A DNA stretch of 64,000 bases from Opitutales bacterium (lineage in GTDB: Bacteria; Verrucomicrobiota; Verrucomicrobiia; Opitutales; Opitutaceae): contig CAXRGI010000293.1 of assembly GCA_964229935.1 (NCBI GenBank), positions 11,385 through 75,384 of the forward strand, read 5' to 3'. The notes below the pieces were generated by a model. That model had not been told where the DNA came from, did no database searches, and saw only the letters and a list, made by a program, of their open reading frames with translations. Positions 44,138 through 63,366 of the stretch are shown in pieces. The first letter of the stretch is position 1. Each line of letters begins with the position of its first letter. Made by a program: the position numbers and the translations under genes.

Positions 44138-44772
44138 GCCGCGGCTCTCCCCGGGACCGGCGGCACTCCCTCGTGGGCCGCGCGCACGCTCACACGCAGG
44201 ACCAGGCGCAGGCGATGGATTCGCACCTTGAGCGCGTTCAGGCTGACGCCCTCGCGGGCGGCGATGGCGCCGTAACTTTCACCATCGATCAACTGGCGCA
44301 CGACGCGGCGCTCGCGCGGGCCGAACTGCCGGAGGGCAACCTCGAGCGCCTCGAGGATCTCGCGGTGCCGGGCGGGCTGCCGGTCGTCCGGGAGGGAGAC
44401 CAGCGTGGCCTCGTCCGCCGTGCCCACGGGCCGGCAACGCGCGCGCCGCAAGTGGTCGAGCGCGGAGTTGCGGGCGAGCGTGAACAGCCACGTCTCGAAC
44501 CGCTCGGGCTCACGCAGCCCGCGGATGCGTCGCACCATCTTGATCCAGACCGCCTGCAGGAGGTCCTCGACCTCGTGCGAGTGAGGGACACGGGGTCGCA
44601 GGAATCCCGCGACGCGGACGCGGTAGCGCCGGATGAGTTCGGCCTGCGCCGCGGCCTCGCCCAGACGGGCGCGCCGTACCAGAGCGAGGAGTTCGTGGTC
44701 GGGCTCCGGCGCGGGCGAAACCGCGGAAGCCGCGAACGGGCTGTTTCCCAATCCTTTGGCCAGGGTGTACAT
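44134..44772 (-). CDS. ECF RNA polymerase sigma factor
   Basis: Region 2 EDLLQ.VWIK...FETWLFTLARN..LDHLRR; region 4 SYGAIA...LKVRIHRLR. Confidence 0.85.
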   Translation of the reverse strand: MYTLAKGLGNSPFAASAVSPAPEPDHELLALVRRARLGEAAAQAELIRRYRVRVAGFLRPRVPHSHEVEDLLQAVWIKMVRRIRGLREPERFETWLFTLARNSALDHLRRARCRPVGTADEATLVSLPDDRQPARHREILEALEVALRQFGPRERRVVRQLIDGESYGAIAAREGVSLNALKVRIHRLRLVLRVSVRAAHEGVPPVPGRAAA

Positions 44773-44774
44773 GT

Positions 44775-47700: not shown

Positions 47701-48071
47701 GAGGTGATGCCCACCATCGGGGTGGGCATGAGCGCGGGGTCCGGCATGCCGTCACCCTCCACATAGAAGGTGGTGGCGTCGTAGTAGGCGCGCACGTGCG
47801 GCTTGAAGGGCGCGAAGGAAGCGGCCATCACCGCGCCGTAGCCGGCGGGCGCGACCGGGGAGGCGGCGGTGGAAACCTCGCCCGCGGAGGCGGCCGGCGC
47901 CAGCGCGGCCCGCTGCTCCGCGATCAGCTGCGCCATGAGCTCGGCGCGGGCGGCGGCCACGGCCGGACTCACCGGGGCCGGGTCATGCCACGAATGCGCG
48001 CCCAGCCGCGCGGTGGCCAGGAGCAGGCACGCGGCGGCGGTCGTGCGGGCGTTGATCCTAGGGGACTTCAT
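44775..48071 (-). CDS. large secreted protein: YHYH domain + 2x DUF1566 + Ig-like + 2x LxNxSxR repeat
   Basis: GGHCG..DDYHYH, ALDGYPIYG, YHYHA; LPDTGQ..GEDSDY, DNGDGTVTD.VTGLMW..DWRLP twice; TYQWRRNG...DAGTY; LANISVR and LLNLSAR. Confidence 0.88.
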   Translation of the reverse strand: MKSPRINARTTAAACLLLATARLGAHSWHDPAPVSPAVAAARAELMAQLIAEQRAALAPAASAGEVSTAASPVAPAGYGAVMAASFAPFKPHVRAYYDATTFYVEGDGMPDPALMPTPMVGITSWQQQVPLPVSYFAGTTNPERDQGSIGFGKPNVWRLPLVPTPAASPIPISAGNFQRGAIAVAADGIAVFNPRNNRGVFSYEIGELDLYGGHCGLADDYHYHIAPVHLQARLGIDKPVAWALDGYPIYGYTEPDGSPRQALDANGGHEHGPWQYHYHAIGSAATGPQNPYLPAAFRGNVINFGGQVDGQPTVQAIRQNNTGGYVAQAITGARITGFRNPVALEADAAGNLVESATGTPSPDEYLMRYTVAGVTYDLCWRINRTPNPKTLTITWRRPGISPTTTTYNSGNNRLTAYPVASPGLARLPDTGQTLDATPAFGEDSDYTINAPSYRDNGDGTVTDLVTGLMWQKVDAGEMTWDAAAVRASAVGTGGYSDWRLPTPAELFSLMNFNNGNPAAMNTAFFPVNPAGAAEYWWTSDIYGADAARVWSVNSGGGLGPKPKGETLSAGGRFRYHARFVRGAPASNAHHYVNNLDGTITDADTGLMWTQVPASAMTWSAALAHVENLVFAGYSDWRLPNIKELQTLTDYTLASATTANNAQASVNRVLFPPASTPATAYWSSTVLRSNGTPSSAWLLELGVNNSVPAAAGPPRGAQGIVSYELMTSSYPVFAVRSVPRASLPVITEQPRPFQTATAGTNVTLGAAASGDGPLTYQWRRNGTAISGATNAALTLSAVKSGDAGTYTLAVTNAAGTATSANAVLTLGSARLANISVRSVSGADSETLIVGFYVGPGTAPSLLVRGIGPTLGAFGVGGVLADPVLTLFRAGGGSQGANDDWSTGVDGARLPAVAAQAGAFALPAGSRDAALLVQPAAGAYTVQLTGKGATGVALIEAYDVAPVAGAAPLLNLSARTRAGTGAEVLIAGFVVSGPEPKRLLIRGVGPALTALGVAGALADPQLAIYRQGGTVPLQQNDDWNASGGGAAVAAAAAQAGSFALGANSKDAAVLMIFEPGAYTAQVSGVGGSTGVALLELYDVP

Positions 48072-50559: not shown

Positions 50560-50612
50560 GGGACGACGCCTCGAGAGTAGGAGCGCCGCATGACGGCCAG
50601 CCCGGAGGGAGG

Positions 50613-50628
50613 ATGAAATTTCGTTCAT
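50613..50628 (-). promoter_or_regulatory. response-regulator-type box 1
   Basis: Transcribed strand ATGAACGAAATTTCAT, 19 nt, then TCAT (50593-50590). Confidence 0.75.
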
Positions 50629-50645
50629 GTTGCGCCCCGGTGCGC

Positions 50646-52445
50646 TCACCGGTACGCCGTGGCGGGGCGGAAGACCTGATGCAGCACCCCTCCGGAAGCG
50701 CCGCCCTCCATCATCCCGCCGCCGGTGAGGTGGATGAGGCCGTTGATGAAAGAACATCCGGTCACGCCGTGCACCGGTACCGGCATGGGCGGAAGCTTGA
50801 TCCACACATTGCGCGCCGGGTCGTAGACGTCGTGATCGGGGAAGACGCCCGTCGGCGTATCGTTGGTGCCCTCGCCGCCGAAGGCGTGGATGTAGCCGTG
50901 CGCCACCACCGCGTTCAGTCCGCCCCGGGGCCGGGGCATCGGCGCCCGCGTGCTCCACTGGTTGGCCACCGGGTCATAGACCTCCACCACGGCGGTCATC
51001 GCGCTCTCGAACCCCGACTCGAGCCGGCCGCCCATCACGTAGAACTTCCCGCCGAGGGCCACCGCGCCGACATGATTCCGCTGCGAGGGGAGATCGGGGA
51101 GCGTACGCCAGGAGTTGGCGGCGGGATCGTAAACCGCGAAATCGTTGCCGCGGGGCGGACGTCCGCCGGCCACGTAGATCTTGCCGTCGATCACCGCGCC
51201 CGCCCCGCCCCCGCGCGCGGTGGGCATGGGCGCGCGCGTGGACCACGTTCTCCGTGCCGGATCGTACTCGTAGACGGTGTTCACCCACGGACCGCTTCCG
51301 CCCGCGGAAGGCTGGCCGCCGATGACGTACAGGCGGCCGTTGACCGCCGCCGAGACCGTGTGGTTGAGCGCCACCGGCAGCGGCGCGCCCAGGGACCAGG
51401 AGTCCGTCGCGGTGTCGTACACCTGCACGGTCGGCACGCTCACGCGTGTCGCGGGATAGCCTCCGACGATGTAAATCCTTCCGTCCAGTTCCGCGACGGA
51501 CATCTCGGAGTTGGGCTCCAGCAGATTGGCCCGCGCGCTCCACTCCCCCTCCTTCAGCGTGACGGCGCCGGGCGGCACCACATAAAGCTCGACCAGGGCG
51601 GTGCCCGACGTGCCGCCGACCCCCGAGACCACCGCCGAGTAGGCGCCCGGCGAGACGGTTACCAGCATCGCCGCGTCGCGGCCGCCGGCCGTCAGGGCGA
51701 ACGCCCCGACCGCGGCCGCGGCATTGGCGAGTTCCGCCGCTTGCTCCGAGGCCGACCAATTGTCGTTGGTCCACAGAGCGCGCCCGTCGCGGTACAGCGT
51801 GATCGTGGGGTCGGCGAGCGCGCCCGCGACCCCGAACCCGGCGAGCGCGGGCCCGACGGCGCGGATGAGGAGCCTCATCGTGCCCGTGCCGCCCACGACA
51901 AAGCCCGGGATCAGCACGTTGTCACCCGTGCCCACGAAGGCGCGGGTCGAGGCGTTGACGATCGCCGGGCCGATGCCCGGAGCGGTGTCATAAACCTCCA
52001 CCAGCGCGACGCCCGAACCGGAGTCGGCGGCGAGGACCGGCGCCGAGTGGTCGCCGGAACGCAAGGAGGCGACCAAAGCGGCATCGCGGCTTCCGCCGGG
52101 AAAAGCGAAGGCTCCGACCCGCGCCATCACGGCCGCGTCGGCGGTGGTCCAGTTGTCGTTCTCCGCCAGCCGCGTGGATCCGCCGAACAACTCGACGCGC
52201 GGATCGGCGAGCGTGCCTGCGACGCCGAAGGCGCCCAGCCCCGGGCCCGCGGCGCGCACGAGCACCGGCTTGGAGCCCGCTCCGGCGAGCACGAAGCCGG
52301 GGATGGGCGTGCCGGCGGCGCCGCCCACCGGGGCGCGGGTCGCGATGTTGACGAGATACGCCCCCTGGGCGGCCGCGCCGGGGGCGAGGAGCAGCGCGGC
52401 GGCGGCCGGCAGCAGGGGATGAAGGAGGGCAGCGAGGATCTTCAT
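50646..52445 (-). CDS. secreted protein: 2x LxNxSxR repeat + six-bladed Kelch propeller
   Basis: Signal peptide; LVNIATR and IVNASTR; six IY..GG...YD....W Kelch repeats. Confidence 0.88.
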   Translation of the reverse strand: MKILAALLHPLLPAAAALLLAPGAAAQGAYLVNIATRAPVGGAAGTPIPGFVLAGAGSKPVLVRAAGPGLGAFGVAGTLADPRVELFGGSTRLAENDNWTTADAAVMARVGAFAFPGGSRDAALVASLRSGDHSAPVLAADSGSGVALVEVYDTAPGIGPAIVNASTRAFVGTGDNVLIPGFVVGGTGTMRLLIRAVGPALAGFGVAGALADPTITLYRDGRALWTNDNWSASEQAAELANAAAAVGAFALTAGGRDAAMLVTVSPGAYSAVVSGVGGTSGTALVELYVVPPGAVTLKEGEWSARANLLEPNSEMSVAELDGRIYIVGGYPATRVSVPTVQVYDTATDSWSLGAPLPVALNHTVSAAVNGRLYVIGGQPSAGGSGPWVNTVYEYDPARRTWSTRAPMPTARGGGAGAVIDGKIYVAGGRPPRGNDFAVYDPAANSWRTLPDLPSQRNHVGAVALGGKFYVMGGRLESGFESAMTAVVEVYDPVANQWSTRAPMPRPRGGLNAVVAHGYIHAFGGEGTNDTPTGVFPDHDVYDPARNVWIKLPPMPVPVHGVTGCSFINGLIHLTGGGMMEGGASGGVLHQVFRPATAYR

Positions 52446-52460
52446 GGGTGGGTGGAAATC

Positions 52461-55073
52461 TCAGTTGGCGGGAGCGATCGTGTAGGTGTGGGCGATCGTC
52501 CGGTTGCGCAGGGAGGCGGTCTCCTGCGTGGGCAAGGCCGCGCGGACGTACTCCACCTTGGCGTTCGCCGGAGAAACCGTGACTCGGAGATGCCCCGAGT
52601 TGGGCAGGATGACGCCCGTGGTGTACTCGCCCTCCCGCGAGCTTCCGGTGGAGAAGTTACCGGTGCCAGGCTGCGGGCACTCCTGGTAGACAACGCCGTC
52701 GAGGGTCTGATAGCCGTAGAAATGGTCGTGGCCGTGGAAAACCGCGCTGACCTTGTTCGCGACCAGCAGCGCGTGGATCGGCTGCCCCCAGCCGGGCCGC
52801 TTTTCCGCGAATCCCTCGGTGCCGTCGAGATTCCTGCCTCCCCACTCGTAACGGTGCGCGGTCTCCACGCCGCCGCGGGCGGAGGTCGTGCCCCCCACCA
52901 GATGGTGGAGGAAGAGGAACTTGTAACGCGCGCGACTGCCCTCGAGCGTGCGCTTGAGCCAGTCGTATTGCGTCCGCCCAAGGGTCCAGCGCCAGTTGTC
53001 GGGCGGGTTGGAATTGGGATTCTGCGTGGTGTTTCCGAATGGATCGAGCACCACGAACAGGGCCTCGCCCCACTCCCAGGCGTAGTAATTCTCCAGCAGC
53101 TCGTCCTTGCCGGCCACCTGCCGGGTTTCCCGGCTGCCGGAGTAGAAGGCGTCGGGCACCGGCGTCGGGTAGTAGAGCTTCCGGGCAAGCAAGTTCCAGG
53201 AGCTGTTGTTGCTGTTACGCGCGGTCGTTCGGTCGGCCTCGTACACGTAGCGGTACTCCGCCTCGTGGTTGCCCAGGGTGTAGAAGAACGGGACGGAGTG
53301 GCAGAGCTCCTCGAAGTAGGCGCGCAGCGCCACCGCGCGGTATTCCACCGCATCATAGTTCAGCTGAATCCCGGGCAGGATCGTCGCGAGTTTGTCCGTC
53401 ATGAAGATGTCCCCGAGGTCGACGTGGAAATCCGGGGCGTCGGCCCCCATGTTGCGCATCGCGAGCCGGAGCAGGCCGGGATTCGTCACCTCATCGAGAT
53501 GGGGATCGGCGGTGACGGTGAAGGTGAAGGTCTCCCCGCGCGGGCGTTGCGTGCGAAAACTGCGTTCCCCGCGGGCGCGGAAGACCGACTCCCCTGGCGC
53601 GCGGTAGCGGACCCGGTAGAAATAACGGCGGTTCGACTCGAGCGGCGCGGCGGGGTCGGCCGATTGCAGCGTGATCTCGATGGGCGTGCCTCCGGGGTAG
53701 GTGGCCGCCGAGGTGCGGCCCGTGTAGACCCCGGACACGGTGCCGTACTCCGCGTAAACCTCGAGCGTCGCCGAGGCCTCGAGGTTGAGCGCCACGCTCT
53801 TCTGCGTCGGGATCCCGAGAAACTCCGCCGAGGTGAAAAGGGCATCGGTGAGCTGGCTGCCCACCAGGTAGGCGTTGGTCGCGCTGGTCGCGGACCCTCC
53901 CCGGTCATCGCGCGCCGCGACCGTGTACGAAACGGTCGCGCCCGCGGGCTGGACGGGAATCACGGCGCCGTACACGCCGTCCCCTGCCGCCCCGTCGCCG
54001 CTCCGGCCGTCGTCGGCCATCGGGAGCGACACCGGCGCGCCGCCGGCCGCATAGGAGAGCCGCACCTCGGTGACCTTCGCCCCGGCGGGGGCCTGCACCA
54101 GGGCCGTGACAGTGGTGGCGTCGAGAAAGTTGGGCGCGGCCGGCGCAGTCGTCACCGCGGAAACGACGAAACCCGCCGTCGAGGACGCGGCCGGGGCGGG
54201 CGTCTCGCTGTAGAGCTCCACCAGAGCCGTGCCGGTGCCGTTGTTCACCCCGCTGACCACCGCGGAGTAGGAACCGGCGGGGAGCGAGACGAGGAGCGCG
54301 GCGTCGCGGCTGCCCGCCGGGAGGTTGAAGGCCCCGAAGGCCGCGCCCGCCGCCGCGATCTCGGCCGCATTCGCCGCCGCGGACCAGTTGTCGTTGGAAC
54401 CCAGCGCCGAGTTGCCCCGGTACAGCGTGAGGGTGGGATCGTTCAGCACGCCGCCCACCCCGAAGGAGGCGAGCGTCGGACCCACCGCCCGGATGAGCAC
54501 CTTCACGGCCCCGGGACCGCTGATCACGAAACCGGGGATGAGGACGTTGTCTCCCGTGCCGACGAACGCGCGGGTGGAAGCGTTCACCAAATAGGACGAG
54601 CCGGTCGGCGAGGCGTCATAGGTCTCCAGCAGGACGACCCCGCTGGTTCCCTCGGGAGCCGTGACGGGGGCCGTGAACGGACCGGGGGCCACGGGCAGCA
54701 CCAAAGCGGCGTCCCGGCTGCCGTTCGCGAAGGCGAAGGCGCCGACGCCGCCCATGACGCCCGCGTCGGACGGCAGCCAGTTGTCGTTGCTCGCCACGAC
54801 GGAGCCTCCGCTGACGAGGCCGAGCCGCGGATCCGCGAGCGCGTTGCCTACGCCGAAGGCGGAAAGCGCGGGCCCGGCGGCGCGCACGATCACCTGCTTC
54901 TGGCCCGTGCCCGCCACCACGAAGCCCGGGATGGGCGTGCCCGCGGTGCCGCCCAGGGCCACGCGCGCGGAGACGTTGACGAGGCGCGCGGAGGAGGGTT
55001 CGGCGGCGGACACGATCGCGAGGAACCGGAGGAAAAGGATCGCGGCCAGAAAAGGGGTGAGGCGTGGGTGCAC
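52461..55073 (-). CDS. secreted protein: 2x LxNxSxR repeat + DDG-motif Ig-like domain + metallophosphoesterase
   Basis: LVNVSAR and LVNASTR; MADDGRSGDGAAGDGVY; ADPH, LGDIF, GNHE, LHH, GHDH. Confidence 0.88.
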   Translation of the reverse strand: MHPRLTPFLAAILFLRFLAIVSAAEPSSARLVNVSARVALGGTAGTPIPGFVVAGTGQKQVIVRAAGPALSAFGVGNALADPRLGLVSGGSVVASNDNWLPSDAGVMGGVGAFAFANGSRDAALVLPVAPGPFTAPVTAPEGTSGVVLLETYDASPTGSSYLVNASTRAFVGTGDNVLIPGFVISGPGAVKVLIRAVGPTLASFGVGGVLNDPTLTLYRGNSALGSNDNWSAAANAAEIAAAGAAFGAFNLPAGSRDAALLVSLPAGSYSAVVSGVNNGTGTALVELYSETPAPAASSTAGFVVSAVTTAPAAPNFLDATTVTALVQAPAGAKVTEVRLSYAAGGAPVSLPMADDGRSGDGAAGDGVYGAVIPVQPAGATVSYTVAARDDRGGSATSATNAYLVGSQLTDALFTSAEFLGIPTQKSVALNLEASATLEVYAEYGTVSGVYTGRTSAATYPGGTPIEITLQSADPAAPLESNRRYFYRVRYRAPGESVFRARGERSFRTQRPRGETFTFTVTADPHLDEVTNPGLLRLAMRNMGADAPDFHVDLGDIFMTDKLATILPGIQLNYDAVEYRAVALRAYFEELCHSVPFFYTLGNHEAEYRYVYEADRTTARNSNNSSWNLLARKLYYPTPVPDAFYSGSRETRQVAGKDELLENYYAWEWGEALFVVLDPFGNTTQNPNSNPPDNWRWTLGRTQYDWLKRTLEGSRARYKFLFLHHLVGGTTSARGGVETAHRYEWGGRNLDGTEGFAEKRPGWGQPIHALLVANKVSAVFHGHDHFYGYQTLDGVVYQECPQPGTGNFSTGSSREGEYTTGVILPNSGHLRVTVSPANAKVEYVRAALPTQETASLRNRTIAHTYTIAPAN

Positions 55074-55117
55074 GGGAAAAGGTGACCGGAAAAGATGAAG
55101 CGGCGGGCGGAGCCTGG

Positions 55118-55133
55118 ATTAAAAGTTGTTCAT
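55118..55133 (-). promoter_or_regulatory. response-regulator-type box 2
   Basis: Transcribed strand ATGAACAACTTTTAAT, 19 nt, then TCAT (55098-55095). Confidence 0.78.
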
Positions 55134-55163
55134 GCAAGGGGCGTCCGGGCGCGGCCCCGGGCC

Positions 55164-56189
55164 TCACCGGGGCTCACCCCGTCGCGCGCCACCCGCCTTG
55201 CCCGACTCCCCTCCCCGGCGGCGGGCGAGTCCGGGATCAACGGGCGGTTTATCACGCGCACCAGCCACCGCGGTTCCGCCGCGCACCGCCCGCACCAGGA
55301 GCCGCTCGCCCTTCAAGGCATGCGTCGCGATGCCGGTGGCAAAGGAGACCTGCCATGCGCGCTCGGGGCGGTTATTCTCGCTGGTGGCAGACCAATGGGC
55401 CCCGGGAGCCGCGTCGGGAAACCACTCCGGAGACAACGGCCGCGATGCTCCGTCATCGCAAAGCGAGCGCAGTTCCTTGATGTTCGGCAGCCGCCATTCC
55501 CCGCTCCCGCCCAGATTCAGGCGCGCGCAGTAGGCCAGCGCTTCCTCCCAAGTCATAGCCTCGGCGGGCGCCTCGCGCTGCCAGACCAACCCCGTCGCCT
55601 CGTCCGCGACTGTCCCCGGCGCCCCCGCGCGCAGACGGGGACCCTCGGCTGGCGCCGCGCCACGCACGCAGAGCGCATGGAATCGCTTCGCGCCGCCCGC
55701 GCTGATCGTCTCGCGCACCGGATGGGGACCGATTCCTCCTCCGGCGTTGGCCACCCAGACGCGGGATTCGTCCCCGGCGCGGTTCGTGGCTGACCACCAG
55801 TACTCCGCCGCGGTGCGAGTGAAACCCGCGGGATCGAGGGCCGGCCGGCTTCGCCCGTGATTGAGCACCGCGAACAACTCCTGGCTTGTGGGCAACCGCC
55901 AGTCCGCGTGGCCGGCCAGCCGTAGGTCGCGCGCATGGGCCCGCGCCGCTTCCCAGGTCATCTCCCCGCCGTCGCTCCGCTGCCACATGAGTCCGGTGAT
56001 CTCGTCGGTCACGGTGCCGTCGCCGTTGTCCCGCATTCGGGGTCCCGCGCCCGCGAAGTCGGAATCCTCGCCGAATGTCCGCGTATGGCGGGCGGTCTGC
56101 CCGGTATCGGGCAGCGGGCCGCCGGAAACAGTCGCGACGGCAAGGAGCAGGAGCCAGATGGAACCATTGGTCCGGAGTCGTGGTTTCAC
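55164..56189 (-). CDS. secreted 2x DUF1566 (Lcl C-terminal-like) protein
   Basis: Signal peptide; LPDTGQ..FGEDSD, DNGDGTVTD.ITGLMW..DWRLP, D.ATGLVW..EWRLPNIKEL. Confidence 0.88.
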   Translation of the reverse strand: MKPRLRTNGSIWLLLLAVATVSGGPLPDTGQTARHTRTFGEDSDFAGAGPRMRDNGDGTVTDEITGLMWQRSDGGEMTWEAARAHARDLRLAGHADWRLPTSQELFAVLNHGRSRPALDPAGFTRTAAEYWWSATNRAGDESRVWVANAGGGIGPHPVRETISAGGAKRFHALCVRGAAPAEGPRLRAGAPGTVADEATGLVWQREAPAEAMTWEEALAYCARLNLGGSGEWRLPNIKELRSLCDDGASRPLSPEWFPDAAPGAHWSATSENNRPERAWQVSFATGIATHALKGERLLVRAVRGGTAVAGARDKPPVDPGLARRRGGESGKAGGARRGEPR

Positions 56190-56234
56190 CCCTCCATCAG
56201 GCGCCCGGCGGATGAACCGCGGGCCCGCGCCCGG

Positions 56235-56250
56235 GTTAAAATCCTTTCAT
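56235..56250 (-). promoter_or_regulatory. response-regulator-type box 3
   Basis: Transcribed strand ATGAAAGGATTTTAAC, 19 nt, then TCAT (56215-56212). Confidence 0.75.
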
Positions 56251-56272
56251 CCGCTTCACCGCCCGCCCGGGG

Positions 56273-56288
56273 ATTAACATCTTTTAAT
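56273..56288 (+). promoter_or_regulatory. response-regulator-type box 4, upstream of the regulator gene
   Basis: ATTAACATCTTTTAAT, followed by TTGCGC-N16-GCTCAT before the GTG start. Confidence 0.7.
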
Positions 56289-56333
56289 TTTTGGCCGCTT
56301 GCGCCGGTTCCCCGCGACCCGCTCATTGCCGGA

Positions 56334-57029
56334 GTGAAGATCCTGGTGCTCGAGGACGACCGGAAGCTGGCGGCGCTGGTCCGCAAAGGGCTCGAGGCGC
56401 AGGGCTTCGCGGTGGACTTCTGCCACCATGGCGACGACGCCTTCGCGCTCGCGTCGACCCGCTCCTACGACGCGCTGGTGCTGGACATCATGGTCCCGGG
56501 CCGGGACGGGCTCAGCATCCTGCGGAACCTGCGGGACCGCCGGATCGCCGTGCCCGTGGTGCTCGTCACCGCCCGCAGCGCGCTCAACGAGCGCCTGGAG
56601 GGCCTGAACCTCGGCGCCGACGATTACCTCACGAAGCCGTTCTATGTGGACGAGCTGATCGCGCGGCTCCACGCCGTCGCCCGGCGCGCCGCCGGCAACG
56701 CGCTCACGCTCCTCCAGAACGGCGCCGTCACCGTGAATCTCATCACCCGCGAGGTCCTGCGTTCGGGCAAGCCCGTGGAGCTCACCGCCCGCGAGTTCTC
56801 CCTGCTCACCTACCTGATGCGGTCGCCGGGCCAGACCTTCACCCGGGCGCAGATCTGCGAGCATGTCTGGAACTATCACTTCGATCCGGGCACCAATCTG
56901 GTGGATGTCTACGTGCAGCGTCTCCGGCGGAAACTCCAGGACGGGGAGGAAAATCCGCTGATCGGAACGGTGCGCGGCGTGGGCTACCGCGCGCGCGCCC
57001 TTCCCTCCTCTCCCCGCGCCGGAGCATGA
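56334..57029 (+). CDS. OmpR-family response regulator (CusR/CzcR-like)
   Basis: ILVLEDD, LDIMVPGRDG, GADDYLTKPF, LTAREFSLL, VW.YHFDPGTNLVDVYV.RLR.K, TVRGVGY. Confidence 0.93.
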   Translation: MKILVLEDDRKLAALVRKGLEAQGFAVDFCHHGDDAFALASTRSYDALVLDIMVPGRDGLSILRNLRDRRIAVPVVLVTARSALNERLEGLNLGADDYLTKPFYVDELIARLHAVARRAAGNALTLLQNGAVTVNLITREVLRSGKPVELTAREFSLLTYLMRSPGQTFTRAQICEHVWNYHFDPGTNLVDVYVQRLRRKLQDGEENPLIGTVRGVGYRARALPSSPRAGA

Positions 57030-58483
57030 CCTCTTTCCGCGTCAGGCTGGCCCTCCTGGTCGGCCTCTCCACCGCCGCGCTGCTCCTGGCAGCCGCCTTC
57101 CTCGCCTGGAACCTCACCTCGGACCTCAACCTCGAGCGGCTGGACCGCAGCCTGCAGCAAATCGCGCGCGCCAACCTCGGGCGGGTGGCGGACGGCAGTC
57201 ACTGGGGCCGTCTGGACGCCGCGTTCGGCGTCGTCTCGGGCCGCGACAGCACGCCCGCCTACGTGGTCTGGGTGCGGAACAACGACCGCGTGGTCTACCG
57301 TTCGACCGGTTGGCCGGCGGAACTGCGGGCGGAGGACTTTGCCGCGGCCGAAACGTACGAGGGCGGGCGCGTCATCACCGACCCGCCGCCACCGCCGCGC
57401 AAAACGGGCCTCTCCGCCAGCAATCCCCCACTGCCGGTGCGGGATCCCCGGCTACTGACCGTCGCCGCGGGCACCGGAAGCTGGCGGGTCCTCGTCACGG
57501 GCAATCCGTACACGCGGTTGGTGCTGGCCGCCAATCTTGACGAGGCCAACGAGGACCTGCTGCGGCTTCGCCAACGCTTTCTGGCCGTGCTCCCGCTCAT
57601 CCTCCTCGTGGTCGGGTTGGCGGCGTGGTGGCTCGCGACCCGCGCCCTCGGCCCGGTGACCGCCCTGACCCGCGCCGCCGAGGGGATCACCGCCCAGGGA
57701 CTCAGCCAGCGCATCTCCGCCCCCGCCCACGACCGGGAATTCGAGCGGCTTGTGACCGTCTTCAACGGGATGCTCGACCGCCTCGAGCAATCGTTCCACC
57801 AGGCCCGGCGTTTCAGCGCCGACGCCTCGCACGAGCTCAAAACGCCGCTCGCCCTGCTGCAGGCCGAGCTGGAGCAGGCGCTCCACGCCGCCCCCTCCGG
57901 TTCCCCGCAGCAGCAGCTTTGCTCCAGTCTCCTCGAGGAGATCCACCGCCTGAAGGCCATCCTCGAGAAACTGCTGCTCCTGTCCCTTGCCGACAGCGGC
58001 CGCCTCTCCCTGGAGCGCGCCGACGTCGATCTCGCCGCCGTGATCCGGGACGTGCTGGAGGACGGCGCCGCGCTCGCACCCACCCTCCGCATCGAGCCGG
58101 AAATCCCCGAACACCTCGACGTCCCGGCCGACCGGGTTCTCGTGGAGCAGGCGCTCCACAACCTCGTGGGCAACGCGGTGAAGTACAACCGGGCCGGTGG
58201 TGTGGTGCGGGTGGCGCTGGCCCGCCGGGGGGACGTCGCGGAACTGCGGGTGGGCAACACGGGGCCCGGGCTGGGTGACACCGAACGCCAGCGGCTGTTC
58301 GAGCGGTTTTACCGCGGGGACCCCGCGCGCACCCGTGGCCGCGCCGGCGGCACCGGCCTGGGACTGAGCCTCTCCCGCGAGATCCTGCGCGCCCACGGCG
58401 GCGACCTCGTGCTCGGGCGCACCGAAACCGATTTCACGGAATTCGTCGCCACTCTGCCCGCGGCCGCGCCCCGGAGCAGCTGA
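57026..58483 (+). CDS. sensor histidine kinase (two TM, HAMP, HisKA, HATPase; CusS/CzcS-like)
   Basis: FNGMLDRLE.SF..ARRFSADASHELKTPL, NLVGNAVKY, NTGPG, GTGLGLS. Confidence 0.93.
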   Translation: MTSFRVRLALLVGLSTAALLLAAAFLAWNLTSDLNLERLDRSLQQIARANLGRVADGSHWGRLDAAFGVVSGRDSTPAYVVWVRNNDRVVYRSTGWPAELRAEDFAAAETYEGGRVITDPPPPPRKTGLSASNPPLPVRDPRLLTVAAGTGSWRVLVTGNPYTRLVLAANLDEANEDLLRLRQRFLAVLPLILLVVGLAAWWLATRALGPVTALTRAAEGITAQGLSQRISAPAHDREFERLVTVFNGMLDRLEQSFHQARRFSADASHELKTPLALLQAELEQALHAAPSGSPQQQLCSSLLEEIHRLKAILEKLLLLSLADSGRLSLERADVDLAAVIRDVLEDGAALAPTLRIEPEIPEHLDVPADRVLVEQALHNLVGNAVKYNRAGGVVRVALARRGDVAELRVGNTGPGLGDTERQRLFERFYRGDPARTRGRAGGTGLGLSLSREILRAHGGDLVLGRTETDFTEFVATLPAAAPRSS

Positions 58484-58496
58484 GGCTCCGCGCGGC

Positions 58497-59999
58497 TCAG
58501 CGACCCCGGACCTCGTAACGGTGGGTTACGGCGCCGGTGCGGCGCGTGGCGTTTTCCGCGGAGTCGGGATACGCCCGCACGTACTCGACCACCGCGCGTT
58601 CAGGGTCCACCGCGACGCGGAGGATACCCGACGCGCCCTGCTTCACGCCGCTCTTGTAGCCGTACTCCTCGAGGCTGCGGATGTTGTCGAAACGCTGGTG
58701 CCCGGGCTGCGGCACAAGCTGATAGATGATGCCGTCACGCTCCTGCTGCACGTAGAGGTGGTCGTGACCGTGGAAGACAATCGCGGGTCCCCGGCGCACG
58801 AGCAGGTCGTGGATCGGCGCCTCCCAACCCGGGCGCTTCTGGGCGAACGTGTTCCGGCCGTCGAGTTCACGGCCGCCCCACTCGAAGAAAAACGACGCCT
58901 CGGAGCCGCCGCGGCCCTCGGGGGTCTCCCCGCCCACCAGATGGTGCAGGAAAACGAAGGTGTGGCGCGCGCGGCTCGTCGCGAGCGTGCGCCGCAGCCA
59001 CTCGTACTGCTCCCGGCCGAGCGTCCGGTTCCAGTTGTCGCCCCGCCCGCCGCCCCCGCGCTCGCCGCGCGAGGAGTACCAGTACGGGTCCAGTGCGATG
59101 AAGAGGGCGTCGCCCCACTCCCAGGCGTAGTAATTCTGCAGCAGGCCCAGTTCCGGGTGCGCGGTGCCGTTGCCGGTGTAGAAGGCGTCCGGCACCGGAT
59201 TGGGAAAATACCGCTTCCGCATCCCGTTCGACCATGCGGCCATCGAATCGGGGCCGGAACCGCCGCGCGCGGGCTGCTCGCCGTCGTGGTTGCCGAGCAC
59301 GAGGAACACCGGCGCGCTGTGCCCCACGAGGCTGAAGTAGTGGCGCTGCGCAAGATACTGGGGCGCGGCGTCCGTGAACTTCAGATACTTGTCCACCATG
59401 AACGTGTCGCCGAGGTCGACGTGGAAATCCGTCCGCGCCGCGAGCGCGTTGGCGAGCGACTTGCGGTACACCGCGGGATCCGTGCCAAAATCGAGGTGCG
59501 GATCGGCCTGCACGGTGAAGGTGAACGCCGCCCCCGCCGGACGCGCCGTGTGAAAGCTGCGCTCCGGCGTGCGCTCGAATTCACCGGATCCCCCACTCCG
59601 CGAGCGGAACTCGTAAAACACGCGGGCGTTGGCCGGCAGGCCGGTAAGAGCCACCTCCACCGGCTCCCCCGCCGCGAAACGCCGCGGCGGCGTGATCTTG
59701 GCCAGCTGTCCCGGGGCAAAACCGTACGCCACCTGCCCCTCCCGCGCCTGATAGCAGAGCACGCTGAGCACCGCGGAATCGCGGGTCGGACGGCCGAGGA
59801 TCAGGTCGTACTCCAGCGCCGGAACTTCCGTGCGGAAGGCGGGCGTGGGCATCCTGGCCTCGCCGCGGCCCTGACCGCCTCCGCCACCACCGCCTCCCTT
59901 GCGGCCACCATCGGCCCGCGGCTCACCGGCGCACAATGCCGCGGCGACCGTCAACCCCAACACCCACGCCAGCCGGGGACACTTCGTGACAACGTTCAT
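58497..59999 (-). CDS. secreted calcineurin-like metallophosphoesterase (free form)
   Basis: Signal peptide; ILGRPT; ADPH, LGDTF, GNHD, LHH, GHDH; paralog of 48058 and 52461. Confidence 0.88.
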   Translation of the reverse strand: MNVVTKCPRLAWVLGLTVAAALCAGEPRADGGRKGGGGGGGGQGRGEARMPTPAFRTEVPALEYDLILGRPTRDSAVLSVLCYQAREGQVAYGFAPGQLAKITPPRRFAAGEPVEVALTGLPANARVFYEFRSRSGGSGEFERTPERSFHTARPAGAAFTFTVQADPHLDFGTDPAVYRKSLANALAARTDFHVDLGDTFMVDKYLKFTDAAPQYLAQRHYFSLVGHSAPVFLVLGNHDGEQPARGGSGPDSMAAWSNGMRKRYFPNPVPDAFYTGNGTAHPELGLLQNYYAWEWGDALFIALDPYWYSSRGERGGGGRGDNWNRTLGREQYEWLRRTLATSRARHTFVFLHHLVGGETPEGRGGSEASFFFEWGGRELDGRNTFAQKRPGWEAPIHDLLVRRGPAIVFHGHDHLYVQQERDGIIYQLVPQPGHQRFDNIRSLEEYGYKSGVKQGASGILRVAVDPERAVVEYVRAYPDSAENATRRTGAVTHRYEVRGR

Positions 60000-61441
60000 C
60001 GCTGTTTTCCTCCTCCGCCCCCGCCGCCTTTGCCGCCACCCTTGCCTCCCCGACGCTCGCCGCCTTCGCGCGGATCGTTCGGATCGGACGCCTTGGCCGG
60101 ATCATAATCGGGATTCGGCCGCGCCATCTGCGCGCTCACCTCCTTGAGATAAGCGTCGAGCCGCGCCCCGAGTTCCGCCGCTTTCTCCGGCATGCTTCCG
60201 GCCAGATTCCGCGATTCTCCGGGATCCTTCTCCAGCTCGAATAGACGCGTCTGCTTCGTCTCGTAATTGCGGATGAGTTTGTAGCCGCCGAGCAGGATGG
60301 CCGTGGCGGGACCGCCGTTCCCGAGATCGTAGTGCGGAAAGTGGAAAACCAGCTCCTCCCGCGTGCGCCGCACCGCCCCGCGGCCGGCGGGATCCCGCAG
60401 CACCGCCACGAGGCTGCCGCCCTCCACCCCCGCCGGCAGCGGCGTCTTCGCGCCCGCGAGCTCCGCGATCGTCGGCAGGATATCGCAGGCCGTCGCCGGC
60501 ACCCGGGAGCAGACGTCGCCCGCGATGCCGGGACCGCTGATGAGAAACGGCACGCGCAAACCGCCCTCGAGCACCGAGCCCTTGCCGCCCGAAAGGGGCG
60601 CATTGTTCGTGCGGCCCTGCCCTCCGTGGTCGGCCGTGTAGAAGATGTACGTCGATCCCGTCAGCCCGAGCCGTTCGATGCCGTCGAGCAGCAGGCCGAA
60701 GGTCTTGTCGATCTCATCGGCGTCGGCCGTGGCGGAATCGCGCCCGGGCCGCGCACCTTCCTTCCGCTCCTGGTTGGGATAATGCGAGAGCTGCAGGTAG
60801 AACGGTTTCCCGGCGGCCTTGGCCTTCGCCATGAACGCGATGCCGCGCTCGGTCATGCCGAAGGCCTGCTTCGGATTGGGGCTGGCGACGTTGTCGGGAC
60901 CGCCATTCGAGGTCGCGCCGTCGCTCGCGTCGAAACCATGCCGCGCCGGATCGGTCCGCCCGACGTGCCACTTGCCGAAATGGGCCGTGGTGTAGCCGTT
61001 CTCCTTCAGCAACTCGGCGACCGTGAGTTCCCCCGTCGGCATCTCCAGCAACGGCTCCGGCGGAATGAGCGCGGTCCGCGGCGTGCCGCCGTCGCGTCCG
61101 GCACCCACGTAGGTCATGCGCAGCGCGGCCGGACCCCGGCCGGTGAACAGGGCCGCGCGCGAAGGGGTGCACCGCGGGGACAGCGCGTAGCCGTAGGTGA
61201 AGCGCATCCCGCTCCGCGCCAGCCGCTCCAGCGCCGGCGTGCTGAAGACCCGGCTGCGCGAGGCCGGCACCCGGTCGTCCATCTGCACCGAGGTCTGCGC
61301 CCAACCCTGGGCCTCGGCCATCAACACCACGAAATTCGGCGGCGCCGCGTCGGCGGCTCGCATCGCGCCGGTCGAGCTACCCGCTAGCACGAGCGATGTG
61401 AGCACCGCCCGTCCGAACCGTCTCCTGGTCATGATCATCAT
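59996..61441 (-). CDS. sulfatase-family protein, possible Tat substrate
   Basis: TRRRF signal; CTPSRAALFTG; GKWH; ADHG; first metal motif reads AEAQGW instead of DDxGW. Confidence 0.85.
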   Translation of the reverse strand: MMIMTRRRFGRAVLTSLVLAGSSTGAMRAADAAPPNFVVLMAEAQGWAQTSVQMDDRVPASRSRVFSTPALERLARSGMRFTYGYALSPRCTPSRAALFTGRGPAALRMTYVGAGRDGGTPRTALIPPEPLLEMPTGELTVAELLKENGYTTAHFGKWHVGRTDPARHGFDASDGATSNGGPDNVASPNPKQAFGMTERGIAFMAKAKAAGKPFYLQLSHYPNQERKEGARPGRDSATADADEIDKTFGLLLDGIERLGLTGSTYIFYTADHGGQGRTNNAPLSGGKGSVLEGGLRVPFLISGPGIAGDVCSRVPATACDILPTIAELAGAKTPLPAGVEGGSLVAVLRDPAGRGAVRRTREELVFHFPHYDLGNGGPATAILLGGYKLIRNYETKQTRLFELEKDPGESRNLAGSMPEKAAELGARLDAYLKEVSAQMARPNPDYDPAKASDPNDPREGGERRGGKGGGKGGGGGGGKQR

Positions 61442-61443
61442 GG

Positions 61444-62553
61444 TTATTCCTCCTCACGCTTCTTCTTGCCGTCCTTGCCCTTGCCGCCCCCGCCGCCGCG
61501 GCGGTCGCCGGCGCGGTACGTTTCCTCGCGCACGGTGCCGTCGGTCGCCGTGAACCGGAACTTCCAGACCCCTTCGCCGACCTGCTCATAGTCGATGGCG
61601 CCCGCACTGCCGCGGACGTCGTACTGGAGCGCATAGGACTTTTCCGGCGTGATCGTTTTGAAGCCCGTGATCTTCGCGCCGCGCAGCACCTGGAGCGCTT
61701 CGCGCACGCCCTGCGCCCGCGGCTGCGGGTCGACCTGCTCCTCGCGCTCGGTCACGACGCCGCGGAAGCCGCCGTTCAGATAAGGGTACTTCGCCGTGGC
61801 GTGGTAGTGGTAGCCGATCGGCGCGTGATCGTGCCCGTTCCAGCGGTCCAGACCCTTGGGCTCGGAATCATCCGCCTCGGTGAGACCGTGGATCGGATAG
61901 CCGTCGAGCGCGTACGCCACCGGCAGCGCCTTGCCCAGCACCGCCTGCAGGTGCAGCGGCGCGACGTGGTAATGGTAATCATCGGCCCGGCCGCAATGCC
62001 CGCCCCACTGGTCGAGTTCGCCGATCTCCTGCGAGACCGCGCCGCGGTTGTTCTGCGGGTTGAAAATCGGGATGCCGTTCGCCGCGAGGGCGATCGCTCC
62101 GCGCAGGAAGCGGTCGCGGATGGTCACGCCACCGTCCGGCGCCGGCACCGGACGCAGCGGGATGCGCCACGCGTTGGCGCCGCGGTACGGCTGCGGCAGC
62201 GGCACCTGCTGCTGCCATGCGGTGATCCCCACCATCATGTTGTGCGCGGGAAGGCCGTTAGACTCGACATACAGGAAGTCGGAGTCGGCTCGCACCCGCA
62301 CCACCGGGGCGAACCTGCCAAACGCGGCGGCCGCGGACGGCAGATCGGCCGACGGGGAGGCTGCGCCCAGTTGCGCCAGCAACGGCGGCAGGTACAAGGA
62401 GACCTGCTCGGGACGGAACTCGCGCGCGACGCGGCGGTCGATCGCGTCGTGGGCGCCGTCACCGGTCAGGTGCGCGAAGGAAGCGGTGGAGGCGCCGGCG
62501 AGGAAAGCGACCGCACGTGAGGCGCGGCAGAGGCGGTGGAAAGTGGTCTTCAT
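61444..62553 (-). CDS. secreted YHYH-domain protein (free form)
   Basis: MVGITAWQQQVPLP, GAIALAANGIPIFNP.NNRG, GGHCGRADDYHYH, ALDGYPIHG, YHYHA. Confidence 0.88.
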   Translation of the reverse strand: MKTTFHRLCRASRAVAFLAGASTASFAHLTGDGAHDAIDRRVAREFRPEQVSLYLPPLLAQLGAASPSADLPSAAAAFGRFAPVVRVRADSDFLYVESNGLPAHNMMVGITAWQQQVPLPQPYRGANAWRIPLRPVPAPDGGVTIRDRFLRGAIALAANGIPIFNPQNNRGAVSQEIGELDQWGGHCGRADDYHYHVAPLHLQAVLGKALPVAYALDGYPIHGLTEADDSEPKGLDRWNGHDHAPIGYHYHATAKYPYLNGGFRGVVTEREEQVDPQPRAQGVREALQVLRGAKITGFKTITPEKSYALQYDVRGSAGAIDYEQVGEGVWKFRFTATDGTVREETYRAGDRRGGGGGKGKDGKKKREEE

Positions 62554-62563
62554 GGCGTTGTCC

Positions 62564-63292
62564 TCAGCGCGCCGGAGCGCCCGTCACATCGAGATCCGGC
62601 TTGGTGTTCCAGCGCGGCTTCCAGCCGGGTTTCTCGACGCGGGTGCGGAAGATCACGGTGTTGTCGAGGTCGAGATCGCCGGTCCAGATGAACTTCGCTC
62701 CCTGGAAGTCGGCTTTGTAGAACGGCTCCTTCGGGTTCACGCGCTCCTCGGTGTACTCGGTGGCGCGCTCCCAGCCGGAGTCATCGAAGTCGACCGCAAA
62801 CCAGTCGGCCGGGATCGGCGTGTGCTCGACCTTCGGGTTCGCGGGGTCGCGGTTCAAGGGGCCGCGGAAAAACGACTTCGCCTTCCAGCTGGCGTTGGTG
62901 ACGGTGCCGTCGCCGAACTTCAGGGCAAAGCCGCCGTCGCCGATGCTCGATCCGTACTCGGTGCCCGTGCGGGGGTCGGCGTTGTCCTTGGCCATCACTG
63001 CGATCGTCATCGGGTATTCCGGCAGGATATCGACCGACACCACATTGTGGGGGATGAAGTCGATCGGATCCACGGCCACCAGCCGGCCGTTGATGTACAG
63101 CATGAACCAGTTGTCGGCGTAGATGTTCGCCCGGACCGTGTCGGCCAGGGTCGGTTTCACCACTCCGGGAGTCCCGCCCCCCTTTCCTTTTCCCCGGCCT
63201 TTGCCGGCGGGGGCCTGGGCGGACTCGGCTCCCGCGCAAACGGCGGCCACGACCAGTCCGAGCAGAAACGCGCGCACGAAACCGGACTTCAT
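62564..63292 (-). CDS. secreted protein with the unnamed 'ADNW' domain (free form)
   Basis: Signal peptide and GK-rich linker; paralog of the N-terminal domain of 43031-44137. Confidence 0.85.
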   Translation of the reverse strand: MKSGFVRAFLLGLVVAAVCAGAESAQAPAGKGRGKGKGGGTPGVVKPTLADTVRANIYADNWFMLYINGRLVAVDPIDFIPHNVVSVDILPEYPMTIAVMAKDNADPRTGTEYGSSIGDGGFALKFGDGTVTNASWKAKSFFRGPLNRDPANPKVEHTPIPADWFAVDFDDSGWERATEYTEERVNPKEPFYKADFQGAKFIWTGDLDLDNTVIFRTRVEKPGWKPRWNTKPDLDVTGAPAR

Positions 63293-63336
63293 GACCCACG
63301 AAACCACGGGCACATGACGCCACGGCGCTGGCGCGG

Positions 63337-63352
63337 ATTAAAAATTATTCAT
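63337..63352 (-). promoter_or_regulatory. response-regulator-type box 5
   Basis: Transcribed strand ATGAATAATTTTTAAT, 19 nt, then TCAT (63317-63314). Confidence 0.78.
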
Positions 63353-63366
63353 CCCGCCGCGGCGGG

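What the first reader, a model, noticed from the sequence alone, without database searches (positions are those of the whole stretch)
50590..63352. Five copies of a 16-bp ATGAA-N6-TT(A/C)AT box with fixed promoter geometry define the regulon
Seen: AT-rich boxes in GC-rich DNA at 50613, 55118, 56235, 56273 and 63337, each about 45-55 nt upstream of a start codon. In all four minus-strand cases the box is followed by CC and, exactly 19 nt after its end, by TCAT (CGTCAT, CTTCAT, GTTCAT, CGTCAT). The downstream half-site therefore sits at the -35 position, 17 nt from an xxTCAT hexamer. A matching TTGCCA-N17-AATCAT precedes fabV, which suggests xxTCAT is the -10 element in this organism. From memory, CusR/CzcR/UzcR-type regulators bind similar 5-6-5 boxes (ATGAC-N6-GTCAT, ATTAC-N6-GTAAT, ATTAC-N6-TTAA). 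Inference: these are class II activation sites for the regulator at 56334, which also autoregulates through box 4.
Basis: partly seen in the sequence, partly recalled or inferred. Interest (0 to 1): 0.85.

Follow-up and report, generated by a model that had tools for sequence, protein, structure and literature searches.

The report
Regulator boxes before secreted-enzyme genes

Summary
All five boxes sit at the stated coordinates. The strict motif occurs nowhere else in the 4.3-Mb draft genome, and all four minus-strand boxes are followed by CC-N17-TCAT.

The boxes and the N19 + T(C/A)AT spacing are conserved before orthologous genes (metallophosphoesterase, YHYH, sulfatase, DUF1566, a 242-aa unknown) across the genus and beyond. 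Among 24 genus genomes, 12 of 12 with the kinase orthologue carry the composite site, against 1 of 12 without it. The regulator is 43% identical to E. coli CusR, and the box has the CusR/CopR 5-6-5 dyad form. Reading the boxes as this regulator's sites, with autoregulation, is well supported.

The "class II, xxTCAT = -10" geometry is not supported. Aligning 39 promoters shows a further element exactly 10 bp after TCAT: a hexamer TWnnnT whose last T is kept in 38 of 39. It reads TTAAAT, TAAATT or TAGAGT in lower-GC relatives, and in the genus the start codon follows 5-7 nt later.

The regulator's own promoter has TTGCGC/TTGACC and its -10 at the same box-relative coordinates. The genome is rich in leaderless genes. 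So the box is centred near -53.5, the mRNAs are probably leaderless, and TCAT (about -26 to -23) most likely acts as a lone third half-site replacing the missing -35, as in a pho box.

Nothing has been tested experimentally.

The parts
50613..50628 (-). Box 1, a perfect dyad ATGAA-N6-TTCAT. It is an internal promoter between the Kelch gene and the 833-aa metallophosphoesterase gene.
   Evidence: The orthologous site is kept in G011 and G005.
50590..50593 (-). TCAT element of promoter 1 (positions 36-39 from the box start)
50574..50579 (-). Proposed -10 hexamer TACTCT of promoter 1 (positions 50-55). The ATG at 50559 lies 14 nt downstream.
55118..55133 (-). Box 2, before the 870-aa metallophosphoesterase gene (52461-55073) and the Kelch gene (50646-52445)
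55095..55098 (-). TCAT element of promoter 2
55079..55084 (-). Proposed -10 hexamer CACCTT of promoter 2. The GTG at 55073 lies 5 nt downstream.
56235..56250 (-). Box 3 (ATGAAAGGATTTTAAC), before the 341-aa Lcl_C/DUF1566 gene (55164-56189)
56212..56215 (-). TCAT element of promoter 3
56196..56201 (-). Proposed -10 hexamer CCTGAT of promoter 3. The GTG at 56189 lies 6 nt downstream.
56273..56288 (+). Box 4 (ATTAACATCTTTTAAT), the autoregulatory site upstream of the regulator's own promoter
56299..56304 (+). -35 hexamer TTGCGC of the regulator promoter (positions 27-32 from the box). It reads TTGACC in most orthologues.
56322..56327 (+). -10 hexamer CTCATT of the regulator promoter (positions 50-55). 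The GTG lies 6 nt downstream.
56334..57029 (+). OmpR-family response regulator, 43% identical to E. coli CusR
57026..58483 (+). Sensor histidine kinase (HAMP-HisKA-HATPase). Its periplasmic domain cannot be aligned to CusS.
63337..63352 (-). Box 5, before the operon of the 242-aa unknown, YHYH, sulfatase and metallophosphoesterase genes (58497-63292)
63314..63317 (-). TCAT element of promoter 5
63298..63303 (-). Proposed -10 hexamer TTTCGT of promoter 5, preceded by TGg. The ATG at 63292 lies 5 nt downstream.
43031..50559 (-). Distal genes of the box 1/2 transcription unit: the 833-aa metallophosphoesterase-Ig protein, the 1098-aa YHYH-Lcl_C-Ig protein, an ECF-type sigma factor (about 44134-44700) and a 368-aa protein

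Best explanation
The five boxes are binding sites for the phosphorylated CusR/CopR-like response regulator encoded at 56334. They define a small, local regulon of secreted proteins: three PhoD/PAP-like metallophosphoesterases, a sulfatase, YHYH proteins, DUF1566/Lcl_C proteins, a Kelch protein, a conserved 242-aa unknown and, at the operon tail, an ECF sigma.

All five promoters share one coordinate system, counted from the first base of the box:
- box at positions 1-16;
- the -35 slot at 27-32;
- the -10 hexamer at 50-55;
- the start codon at about 61-64.

The box is therefore centred near -53.5, upstream of the -35 slot, not at -35. Transcription probably starts at or within a few bases of the start codon, giving leaderless mRNA.

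The regulator's own promoter carries a real -35 (TTGCGC; TTGACC in relatives), so it has basal expression plus positive feedback.

The four target promoters have no -35. Instead they carry a conserved K-T-(C/A)-A-T at positions 35-39, ending exactly 10 bp upstream of the -10. It has the same sequence and orientation as the proximal half of the box. I infer that it is a lone third half-site where a further regulator protomer sits and recruits sigma region 4, as PhoB does at a pho box. That would make these promoters fully dependent on the activated regulator.

Shown by sequence and comparison: the elements, their fixed spacing, their conservation and their co-occurrence with the two-component system.
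Inferred: who binds them, the transcription start sites and the direction of regulation.
The signal is unknown. The kinase's sensor domain is unlike that of CusS.
For: 1. Specificity. The strict motif is found only in this locus in 4.3 Mb. The weight-matrix scores of the five boxes are separated from all other hits.

2. Conservation. Boxes precede orthologues of the same gene families in G005, G024, G001, G003, G004, G010, G019, G020, G023, G046 and G051, although gene order is rearranged. They also precede 242-aa orthologues in other Verrucomicrobiota as ATGACAAAACTGTAAT.

3. Co-occurrence. The composite pattern gives 92 hits against 7 control hits in 61 genus genomes. Among G001-G024, 12 of 12 genomes with a kinase orthologue have it, against 1 of 12 without.

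4. Family likeness. The regulator is 43% identical to E. coli CusR, and its best NCBIfam model is the heavy-metal regulator family. The CusR box AAAATGACAAnnTTGTCATTTT and the Pseudomonas CusR/CopR/CzcR palindrome are 5-6-5 dyads in divergent spacers that control both operons (PMC11195947).

5. The -10 at positions 50-55. In 20 promoters: T50 12/20, W51 16/20, T55 19/20, with the neighbouring columns unconserved. In 19 further promoters T55 is 19/19, and lower-GC relatives read TTAAAT, TAAATT, TAATTT, TAGAGT or TAAGCT.

6. Twelve regulator promoters place TTGMSS at 27-32 and a hexamer ending in T at 55, 6-8 nt before GTG/ATG.

7. Leaderless genes are common. The distance from TTGAC/TTGCC/TTGCG to the first start codon of an ORF peaks at 35 nt (52 against a background of about 7), and the controls are flat. 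Aligned on the start codon, T at -7 is 0.49, T at -8 is 0.37 and A at -11 is 0.31.

8. T[CA]AT is found in 19 of 20 target promoters and 0 of 12 regulator promoters. It is not enriched at -27 to -23 genome-wide. In other families it extends to TGTCAT/TGTAAT.

9. Pho boxes lie 10 bp upstream of the -10 (PMC1906773).

10. In E. coli, TAAAGT lies at positions 50-55 from the CusR box on the cusC side.
Against: - There are no binding data, no mapped transcription start and no expression data under any condition. The RNA contigs laid on the locus cannot show starts.
- The -10 hexamers in this GC-rich genome are weak (CACCTT, CCTGAT), so the assignment rests on comparison, not on the window alone.
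- In promoter 1 and its G005 orthologue the start codon is 14 nt from the hexamer, so a short leader is needed there.
- A lone half-site 23 bp from its neighbour, with no recognisable partner at positions 24-28, is unusual for OmpR/PhoB-family regulators, and I know of no described precedent.
- E. coli cusC has TCAG one base off at that place, not TCAT.
- The regulator and the kinase both score below the curated cut-offs of the heavy-metal families.
- No metal-handling genes are in the regulon.
Confidence: 0.68

Rival explanations
1. The box is a class II site whose downstream half replaces the -35, and xxTCAT 17 nt further on is the -10. Transcripts would start about 7 nt after TCAT and carry 14-23-nt leaders.
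For: The geometry is exact in all four promoters and widely conserved. A TTMAT-N17-hexamer spacing is what a sigma-70 promoter needs. One tRNA-Arg promoter reads TTGACG-N17-CTTCAT. Both promoters could also coexist.
Against: - This model leaves unexplained the equally fixed TWnnnT hexamer 10 bp downstream, which is an obvious -10 in lower-GC relatives.
- It does not explain why the regulator's own -35 and -10 fall on positions 27-32 and 50-55.
- xxTCAT has no A at -11 and has A at -8, against this genome's -10 profile.
- TCAT is absent from general promoters.
- The supporting fabV example has an 18-nt spacer.
Confidence: 0.13
2. The boxes are recognised by a different dimeric transcription factor, not by the adjacent response regulator. 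The neighbourhood would then be coincidental or reflect co-regulation of the regulator gene.
For: No binding data exist. The genome encodes at least four other OmpR-family regulators of similar score, and cross-recognition of one box by several regulators is documented in Pseudomonas (PMC11195947).
Against: - The box is kept next to the regulator gene in every orthologous locus examined.
- The composite sites are present in 12 of 12 genomes with the kinase orthologue and 1 of 12 without.
- The box type matches the regulator's nearest family.
Confidence: 0.1
3. The conserved elements are a promoter for the ECF-type sigma factor encoded at the tail of the operon (about 44134-44700). The box half or TCAT would be the -35 and the downstream hexamer the -10.
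For: An ECF-type sigma gene (Sigma70_r2/r4_2) lies in the same transcription unit. Two promoters read CGTC at the TCAT element.
Against: - The box is a dyad (perfect in box 1), which points to a dimeric factor, not a sigma.
- GAAC to CGTC is 27 nt and TCAT to the downstream hexamer is 10 nt, whereas ECF promoters need about 16-17 nt.
- Only 2 of 4 promoters have CGTC.
- The same box sits upstream of an ordinary TTGACC-N17 promoter at the regulator gene.
Confidence: 0.03

Closest known systems
E. coli CusR box in the cusRS / cusCFBA divergent spacer
   Same: It is a 16-bp 5-6-5 dyad (ATGAC-N6-GTCAT) lying between the regulator operon and a divergent target operon, and it controls both (PMC11195947, PMC10920338). 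The regulators are 43% identical. In the E. coli sequence a TAAAGT hexamer lies at positions 50-55 from the box start, the same offset as here.
   Different: - The half-sites here are ATGAA/TTMAT (ATGAC in more distant species of the genus).
- There are five sites and four target operons rather than one.
- The targets are secreted phosphoesterases, a sulfatase and YHYH/DUF1566 proteins, not a metal efflux pump.
- The T(C/A)AT element is not present in that form in E. coli.
- The kinase's sensor domain cannot be aligned to CusS.
- I could not verify the mapped cusC start site.
Pseudomonas CopR / CusR / CzcR sites (palindrome ATTCATnnATGTAAT as printed; CTGACA-N5-GTAAT; GAAAC-N6-GTAAT)
   Same: The half-site family is the same, with a dominant downstream GTAAT-type half (PMC11195947). 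Relatives of this locus in other Verrucomicrobiota use ATGACAAAACTGTAAT, which fits the CopR consensus.
   Different: Those systems respond to copper or zinc and control pco, cop and czc genes. No third half-site or leaderless arrangement is described in the paper I read.
PhoB pho box promoters
   Same: The activator site replaces the -35 and ends 10 bp upstream of a TAN3T -10 (PMC1906773). The pho half-site CTGTCAT contains GTCAT. The regulon consists of secreted phosphoesterases.
   Different: Pho boxes are tandem direct repeats. Here a full dyad lies 19 bp upstream and only a single half-site sits in the pho-box position. The regulator scores 190 bits against the PhoB cut-off of 296, and a better PhoB candidate lies on contig C60.
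Caulobacter UzcR
   Same: From memory only: a metal-responsive OmpR-family regulator with a 5-6-5-like motif controlling many extracytoplasmic proteins.
   Different: Not checked. The papers found by my search were not read for the motif, so this remains a lead, not a comparison.

Membership tests
Heavy-metal response regulator family (TIGR01387, cztR/silR/copR) | Score above the curated family cut-off | tested here: not met
   It is the best-scoring family, but at 212 bits against a cut-off of 279.2. The regulator is 43% identical to E. coli CusR over 219 residues.
Heavy-metal response regulator family (CusR/CopR type) | Binds a 5-6-5 dyad box of ATGAC/GTCAT or GTAAT type in the spacer next to its own operon | tested here: met
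   This holds at the sequence level only. The dyad boxes lie next to the regulator gene in all orthologous loci, and the form matches PMC11195947. Binding itself cannot be tested here.
Heavy-metal sensor kinase family (TIGR01386, CusS type) | Score above the cut-off and a CusS-like periplasmic metal-binding domain | tested here: not met
   The score is 250 bits against a cut-off of 292.55. BLASTP against E. coli CusS aligns only residues 141-479, at 29% identity. The sensor domain does not align.
Metal-resistance regulon | Targets are metal efflux, oxidase or sequestration genes | tested here: not met
   The targets are Metallophos/PhoD-like, Sulfatase, YHYH, Lcl_C and Kelch proteins and an unknown. 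No RND, P-type ATPase or multicopper oxidase gene is in the locus.
Class II (-35-overlapping) activator site | Site overlaps the -35 position relative to the true -10 and start site | tested here: not met
   The best-supported -10 is at positions 50-55, which puts the box at -61 to -46. Only the lone T(C/A)AT element lies in the promoter core. Start sites are unmapped.
PhoB / pho box | PhoB equivalog, and tandem direct repeats ending 10 bp upstream of the -10 | tested here: inconclusive
   The 10-bp spacing of the proximal element is met (PMC1906773). The tandem repeat is not met. The PhoB cut-off is not met (190 against 296.2), and a better candidate exists elsewhere in the genome (243 bits).
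ECF sigma promoter | AAC-type -35 and CGT-type -10 about 16-17 nt apart, without dyad symmetry | tested here: not met
   The spacings are 27 and 10 nt, CGTC occurs in only 2 of 4 promoters, and the box is a dyad.
Leaderless mRNA promoters | -10 hexamer ending 5-8 nt before the start codon, with the start site at the start codon | tested here: inconclusive
   The spacing is met in 17 of 20 target promoters and 12 of 12 regulator promoters, and there is a genome-wide peak at 35 nt. The start sites themselves cannot be tested, because the available RNA runs are contigs.

The most novel reading that the evidence does not exclude
A promoter design conserved across Verrucomicrobiota for CopR/CusR-type regulators: a distal dyad box centred near -53.5, plus a single extra half-site ending 10 bp upstream of the -10. 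The half-site would take over the role of the missing -35 (PhoB-like recruitment of sigma) and drive leaderless mRNAs. In this genus the design would have been taken over from metal resistance to control a secreted phosphoesterase/sulfatase/YHYH toolkit in response to a non-CusS-type signal.
Probability: 0.35. Interest if true: 0.6.

Novelty: new variant of a known kind. Interest (0 to 1): 0.47.

Why it matters
- It gives a testable regulatory map for an uncultured but widespread freshwater Opitutae lineage. The locus was found nearly intact in DNA runs from seven freshwater, riverine or marine studies. The map names one two-component system, five sites, four operons of secreted enzymes and an ECF sigma downstream.
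- It shows that a CusR/CopR-type box need not mark metal-resistance genes, which matters for annotation by motif.
- The box + N19 + half-site + N10 + -10 arrangement recurs in several families of the order and in other Verrucomicrobiota. If confirmed, it would be a distinct way for an OmpR-family activator to replace a -35.
- The genome-wide signal for leaderless genes is useful for gene-start calling in these MAGs.

Tried and rejected
- Base frequencies upstream of "confident" start codons. The selection rule (an in-frame stop just upstream) created a stop-codon artefact, so this says nothing about a -10. It did show the lack of a Shine-Dalgarno signal.
- Composition downstream of TTGAC in "non-coding" DNA. 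My coding mask covered only 70% of the genome and the signal was swamped.
- Metatranscriptome runs X17-X20 laid on 44500-63999. Fragments identical to locus genes occur in them, but the runs are contigs. They give no starts, strand or expression level, and DNA carry-over cannot be excluded.
- The strict 16-bp motif across the genus. Many hits are chance palindromes or coding ATGAA...TTCAT, so only the composite pattern was informative.
- Literature. I found no usable paper on Verrucomicrobia promoter consensus (one search failed on syntax and was not repeated). The UzcR motif was not retrieved. Munson et al. 2000 on the cusC start site is not held, so the -53.5 position of the E. coli CusR box is unverified.
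- Second full box at the TCAT element: positions 24-28 are C/G-rich with no ATGAA-like partner. Rejected.
- Sigma-54 reading of elements near -24 and -12: no GG/GC consensus. Rejected on sight.
- A search of solved structures returned only generic OmpR-family regulators and no CusR-DNA complex.

Full report
**What is there.** The window is contig C293 of a 4.3-Mb, 411-contig draft genome that is 86% complete. The closest public record is an uncultured Opitutae MAG from a lake, and other relatives are labelled Opitutaceae. Near-identical DNA occurs in many freshwater and riverine metagenomes.

The strict pattern ATGAA-N6-TTMAT has 0.02 expected matches in window shuffles and 3 observed. Those 3 are its only occurrences in the whole draft genome. 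With a weight matrix built from the sites, the five boxes score 24.9-28.7 bits, the next genomic hit scores 22.6, and everything else is under 20. All four minus-strand boxes are followed by CC, then 17 nt, then TCAT. None of the roughly 55 weaker hits has T[CA]AT at that offset.

There are small corrections. Box 3 ends in C. Box 4 is ATTAA-N6-TTAAT and lacks the TCAT geometry. The fabV promoter is TTGCCA-N18-AATCAT, not N17.

**Genes.**
- Box 2 precedes an 870-aa Metallophos/PhoD-like protein and a 599-aa Kelch protein.
- Box 1, 18 nt after the Kelch stop codon, precedes an 833-aa Metallophos-Ig protein, a 1098-aa YHYH-Lcl_C-Ig protein, an ECF-type sigma and a 368-aa protein.
- Box 3 precedes a 341-aa Lcl_C (DUF1566) protein.
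- Box 4 precedes the OmpR-family regulator and its HAMP-HisKA kinase.
- Box 5 precedes a 242-aa protein with no family, a YHYH protein, a sulfatase and a third Metallophos protein.

The regulator's best NCBIfam model is the heavy-metal regulator family (212 bits, cut-off 279). The kinase's best model is the heavy-metal kinase family (250 bits, cut-off 293). The regulator is 43% identical to E. coli CusR. The kinase aligns to CusS only from residue 141 on, so the sensor domain is different.

**Comparative test of the boxes.** Kinase orthologues (58-100% identity) occur in 12 of 24 sampled genomes of the genus. In every locus with enough flank, a box lies next to the regulator gene. Further boxes precede orthologues of the same gene families, although gene order differs. 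More distant species use ATGAC instead of ATGAA in the first half. G010 has a perfect ATGAC-N6-GTCAT, which is the E. coli CusR form (PMC11195947).

The composite pattern (box + N19 + TMAY) gives 92 hits against 7 for the reversed control in 61 genus genomes. Among G001-G024 it is present in 12 of 12 genomes with the kinase orthologue and in 1 of 12 without. These genomes are related, so this is not a formal test.

The 242-aa protein has 276 relatives across Verrucomicrobiota and Planctomycetota. In about a dozen of the 80 loci fetched, its gene is preceded by a CopR-like ATGACAAAACTGTAAT with the same downstream geometry. I conclude that the boxes are sites of this regulator family and, most probably, of the adjacent regulator.

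**The promoter geometry.** I aligned 20 target promoters from about ten species on the box. Three conserved blocks stand in otherwise unconserved GC-rich DNA:
- the box (positions 1-16);
- K-T-M-A-T (positions 35-39; T36 19/20, A38 20/20);

The start codon follows 5-7 nt later in 17 of 20. In a second set not used to find the pattern, T55 holds in 19 of 19. In relatives with 45-62% GC the hexamer reads TTAAAT, TAAATT, TAATTT, TAGAGT or TAAGCT, a plain -10, and is often preceded by TGn. In G025 the hexamer TGTAAT is kept although the start codon is 40 nt away. So T55 belongs to the promoter, not to the translation start.

Twelve regulator promoters, read from the box toward the regulator gene, have 10 nt, then TTGACC/TTGCGC at 27-32, then 17 nt, then a hexamer ending in T at position 55, then 6-8 nt to GTG/ATG. 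Both kinds of promoter therefore share one frame. In that frame the box spans about -61 to -46 (centre about -53.5) and TCAT lies at about -26 to -23.

In the E. coli cusR-cusC spacer, TAAAGT also lies at positions 50-55 from the CusR box. I could not verify the mapped start site.

**Is a -10 that close to the start codon credible here?** Yes. tRNA genes are preceded by TTGAC/TTGCC-type -35 elements with weak downstream hexamers. Genome-wide, the distance from TTGAC/TTGCC/TTGCG to the first start codon of GC3-rich ORFs has a sharp peak at 34-37 nt (26, 52, 35, 22 against a background of about 7). Two control words are flat. That distance is 6 + 17 + 6 + 6 nt, the signature of leaderless genes.

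Aligned on the start codon, these promoters show T at -7 (0.49), T at -8 (0.37) and A at -11 (0.31). There is no Shine-Dalgarno signal. The hexamers at 50-55 fit this profile. xxTCAT, with no A at -11 and with A at -8, does not.

**What is TCAT?**
- It is not a general promoter element. T[CA]AT is not enriched at -27 to -23 before the 2188 candidate starts.
- It is present in 19 of 20 target promoters, which lack a -35, and in 0 of 12 regulator promoters, which have one.
- Its sequence (GTCAT, TTCAT, GTAAT, TTAAT; TGTCAT/TGTAAT in other families) and its orientation equal those of the proximal half of the box.
- It stays 10 bp from the -10 even where the box-to-TCAT distance is 18 instead of 19 (L021 and L034).
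- Pho boxes lie 10 bp upstream of the -10 and replace the -35 (PMC1906773).

My inference is that TCAT is a lone third half-site through which the activated regulator, anchored on the distal dyad, substitutes for the -35. This step is the least certain. No partner half-site is visible at positions 24-28, and I know of no described precedent.

**Rivals.**
Coexistence of two starts cannot be excluded.
- An ECF promoter is excluded by the dyad symmetry and the spacings.
- A different factor binding the boxes is possible but disfavoured by the co-occurrence data.
- A true Pho regulon is unlikely, because a better PhoB candidate exists on C60.

**Verdict.** The assignment to the regulator and the autoregulation are supported by comparison. 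The proposed promoter anatomy should be replaced by: box (about -53.5), empty -35 slot, T(C/A)AT half-site, N10, -10, leaderless start.

This is a new variant of the known CusR/CopR box system, with an unusual regulon and an extra element. The earlier notes of this scan on the same stretch gave the ECF sigma and the Opitutae lead, and I confirmed both.

Noticed in passing
whole genome G000 (for example window 37743-37784, fabV; 56299-56336, regulator gene): Leaderless genes appear to be common. The distance from a TTGAC/TTGCC/TTGCG -35 to the first start codon peaks sharply at 35 nt (52 cases against a background of about 7). There is no Shine-Dalgarno signal, and C is preferred at -1/-2 before the start codon.
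   Followed up: partly
G011:C211:20786-20824: The same-species genome G011 (kinase 100% identical) has a fifth composite site, ATGACATTCTGTTAAT-N19-TCAT, on another contig. The site type matches the one before the 833-aa phosphoesterase orthologue in G023, and it recurs in G012, G043 and G068. G000's 86%-complete assembly lacks it, so the regulon here may be larger than the window shows.
   Followed up: no
window 62564-63292 (-): The 242-aa secreted protein matches no Pfam or NCBIfam family. It is nevertheless 60-86% identical to 276 relatives across Verrucomicrobiota and Planctomycetota, and it is the most widely conserved member of the box regulon.
   Followed up: partly
L062 (G025:C27) 9935-10861: In another family of the order, the box-N19-TCAT-N10-TGTAAT promoter faces a 276-aa Gly/Pro/Arg-rich secreted protein with two EF-hand-like DxDxDG loops. 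This hints at a link to calcium or another metal.
   Followed up: no
L052 (G005:C32) 10219-13010: In G005 the box and promoter upstream of the kinase are followed by only a short ORF. The regulator orthologue lies 2.7 kb away behind its own box (GTTAAAATGTTGTAAT). The regulator-kinase pair has been split by a rearrangement.
   Followed up: no
window 43031-44964 (-): An ECF-type sigma gene (Sigma70_r2/r4_2) and a 368-aa protein with no family end the box 1/2 transcription unit. The two-component system may therefore switch on a second regulatory layer. No box lies directly before them.
   Followed up: partly
L021 (G008:C21) and L034 (G010:C3:739201): A further gene (N-terminus MIAR...) carries ATGAAC-N4-GTTCAT-type boxes with N18 instead of N19 before TCAT, then N10, TAGGCT/TAGTCT, N6 and ATG. 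TCAT keeps its distance to the -10, not to the box.
   Followed up: no
L094 (E. coli K-12 595512-595566): In the E. coli cusR-cusC spacer the CusR box is followed after 33 nt by TAAAGT on the cusC side. On the cusR side it is followed after 32 nt by TACTCT. These are the same offsets, or one base off, as the -10 proposed here.
   Followed up: partly
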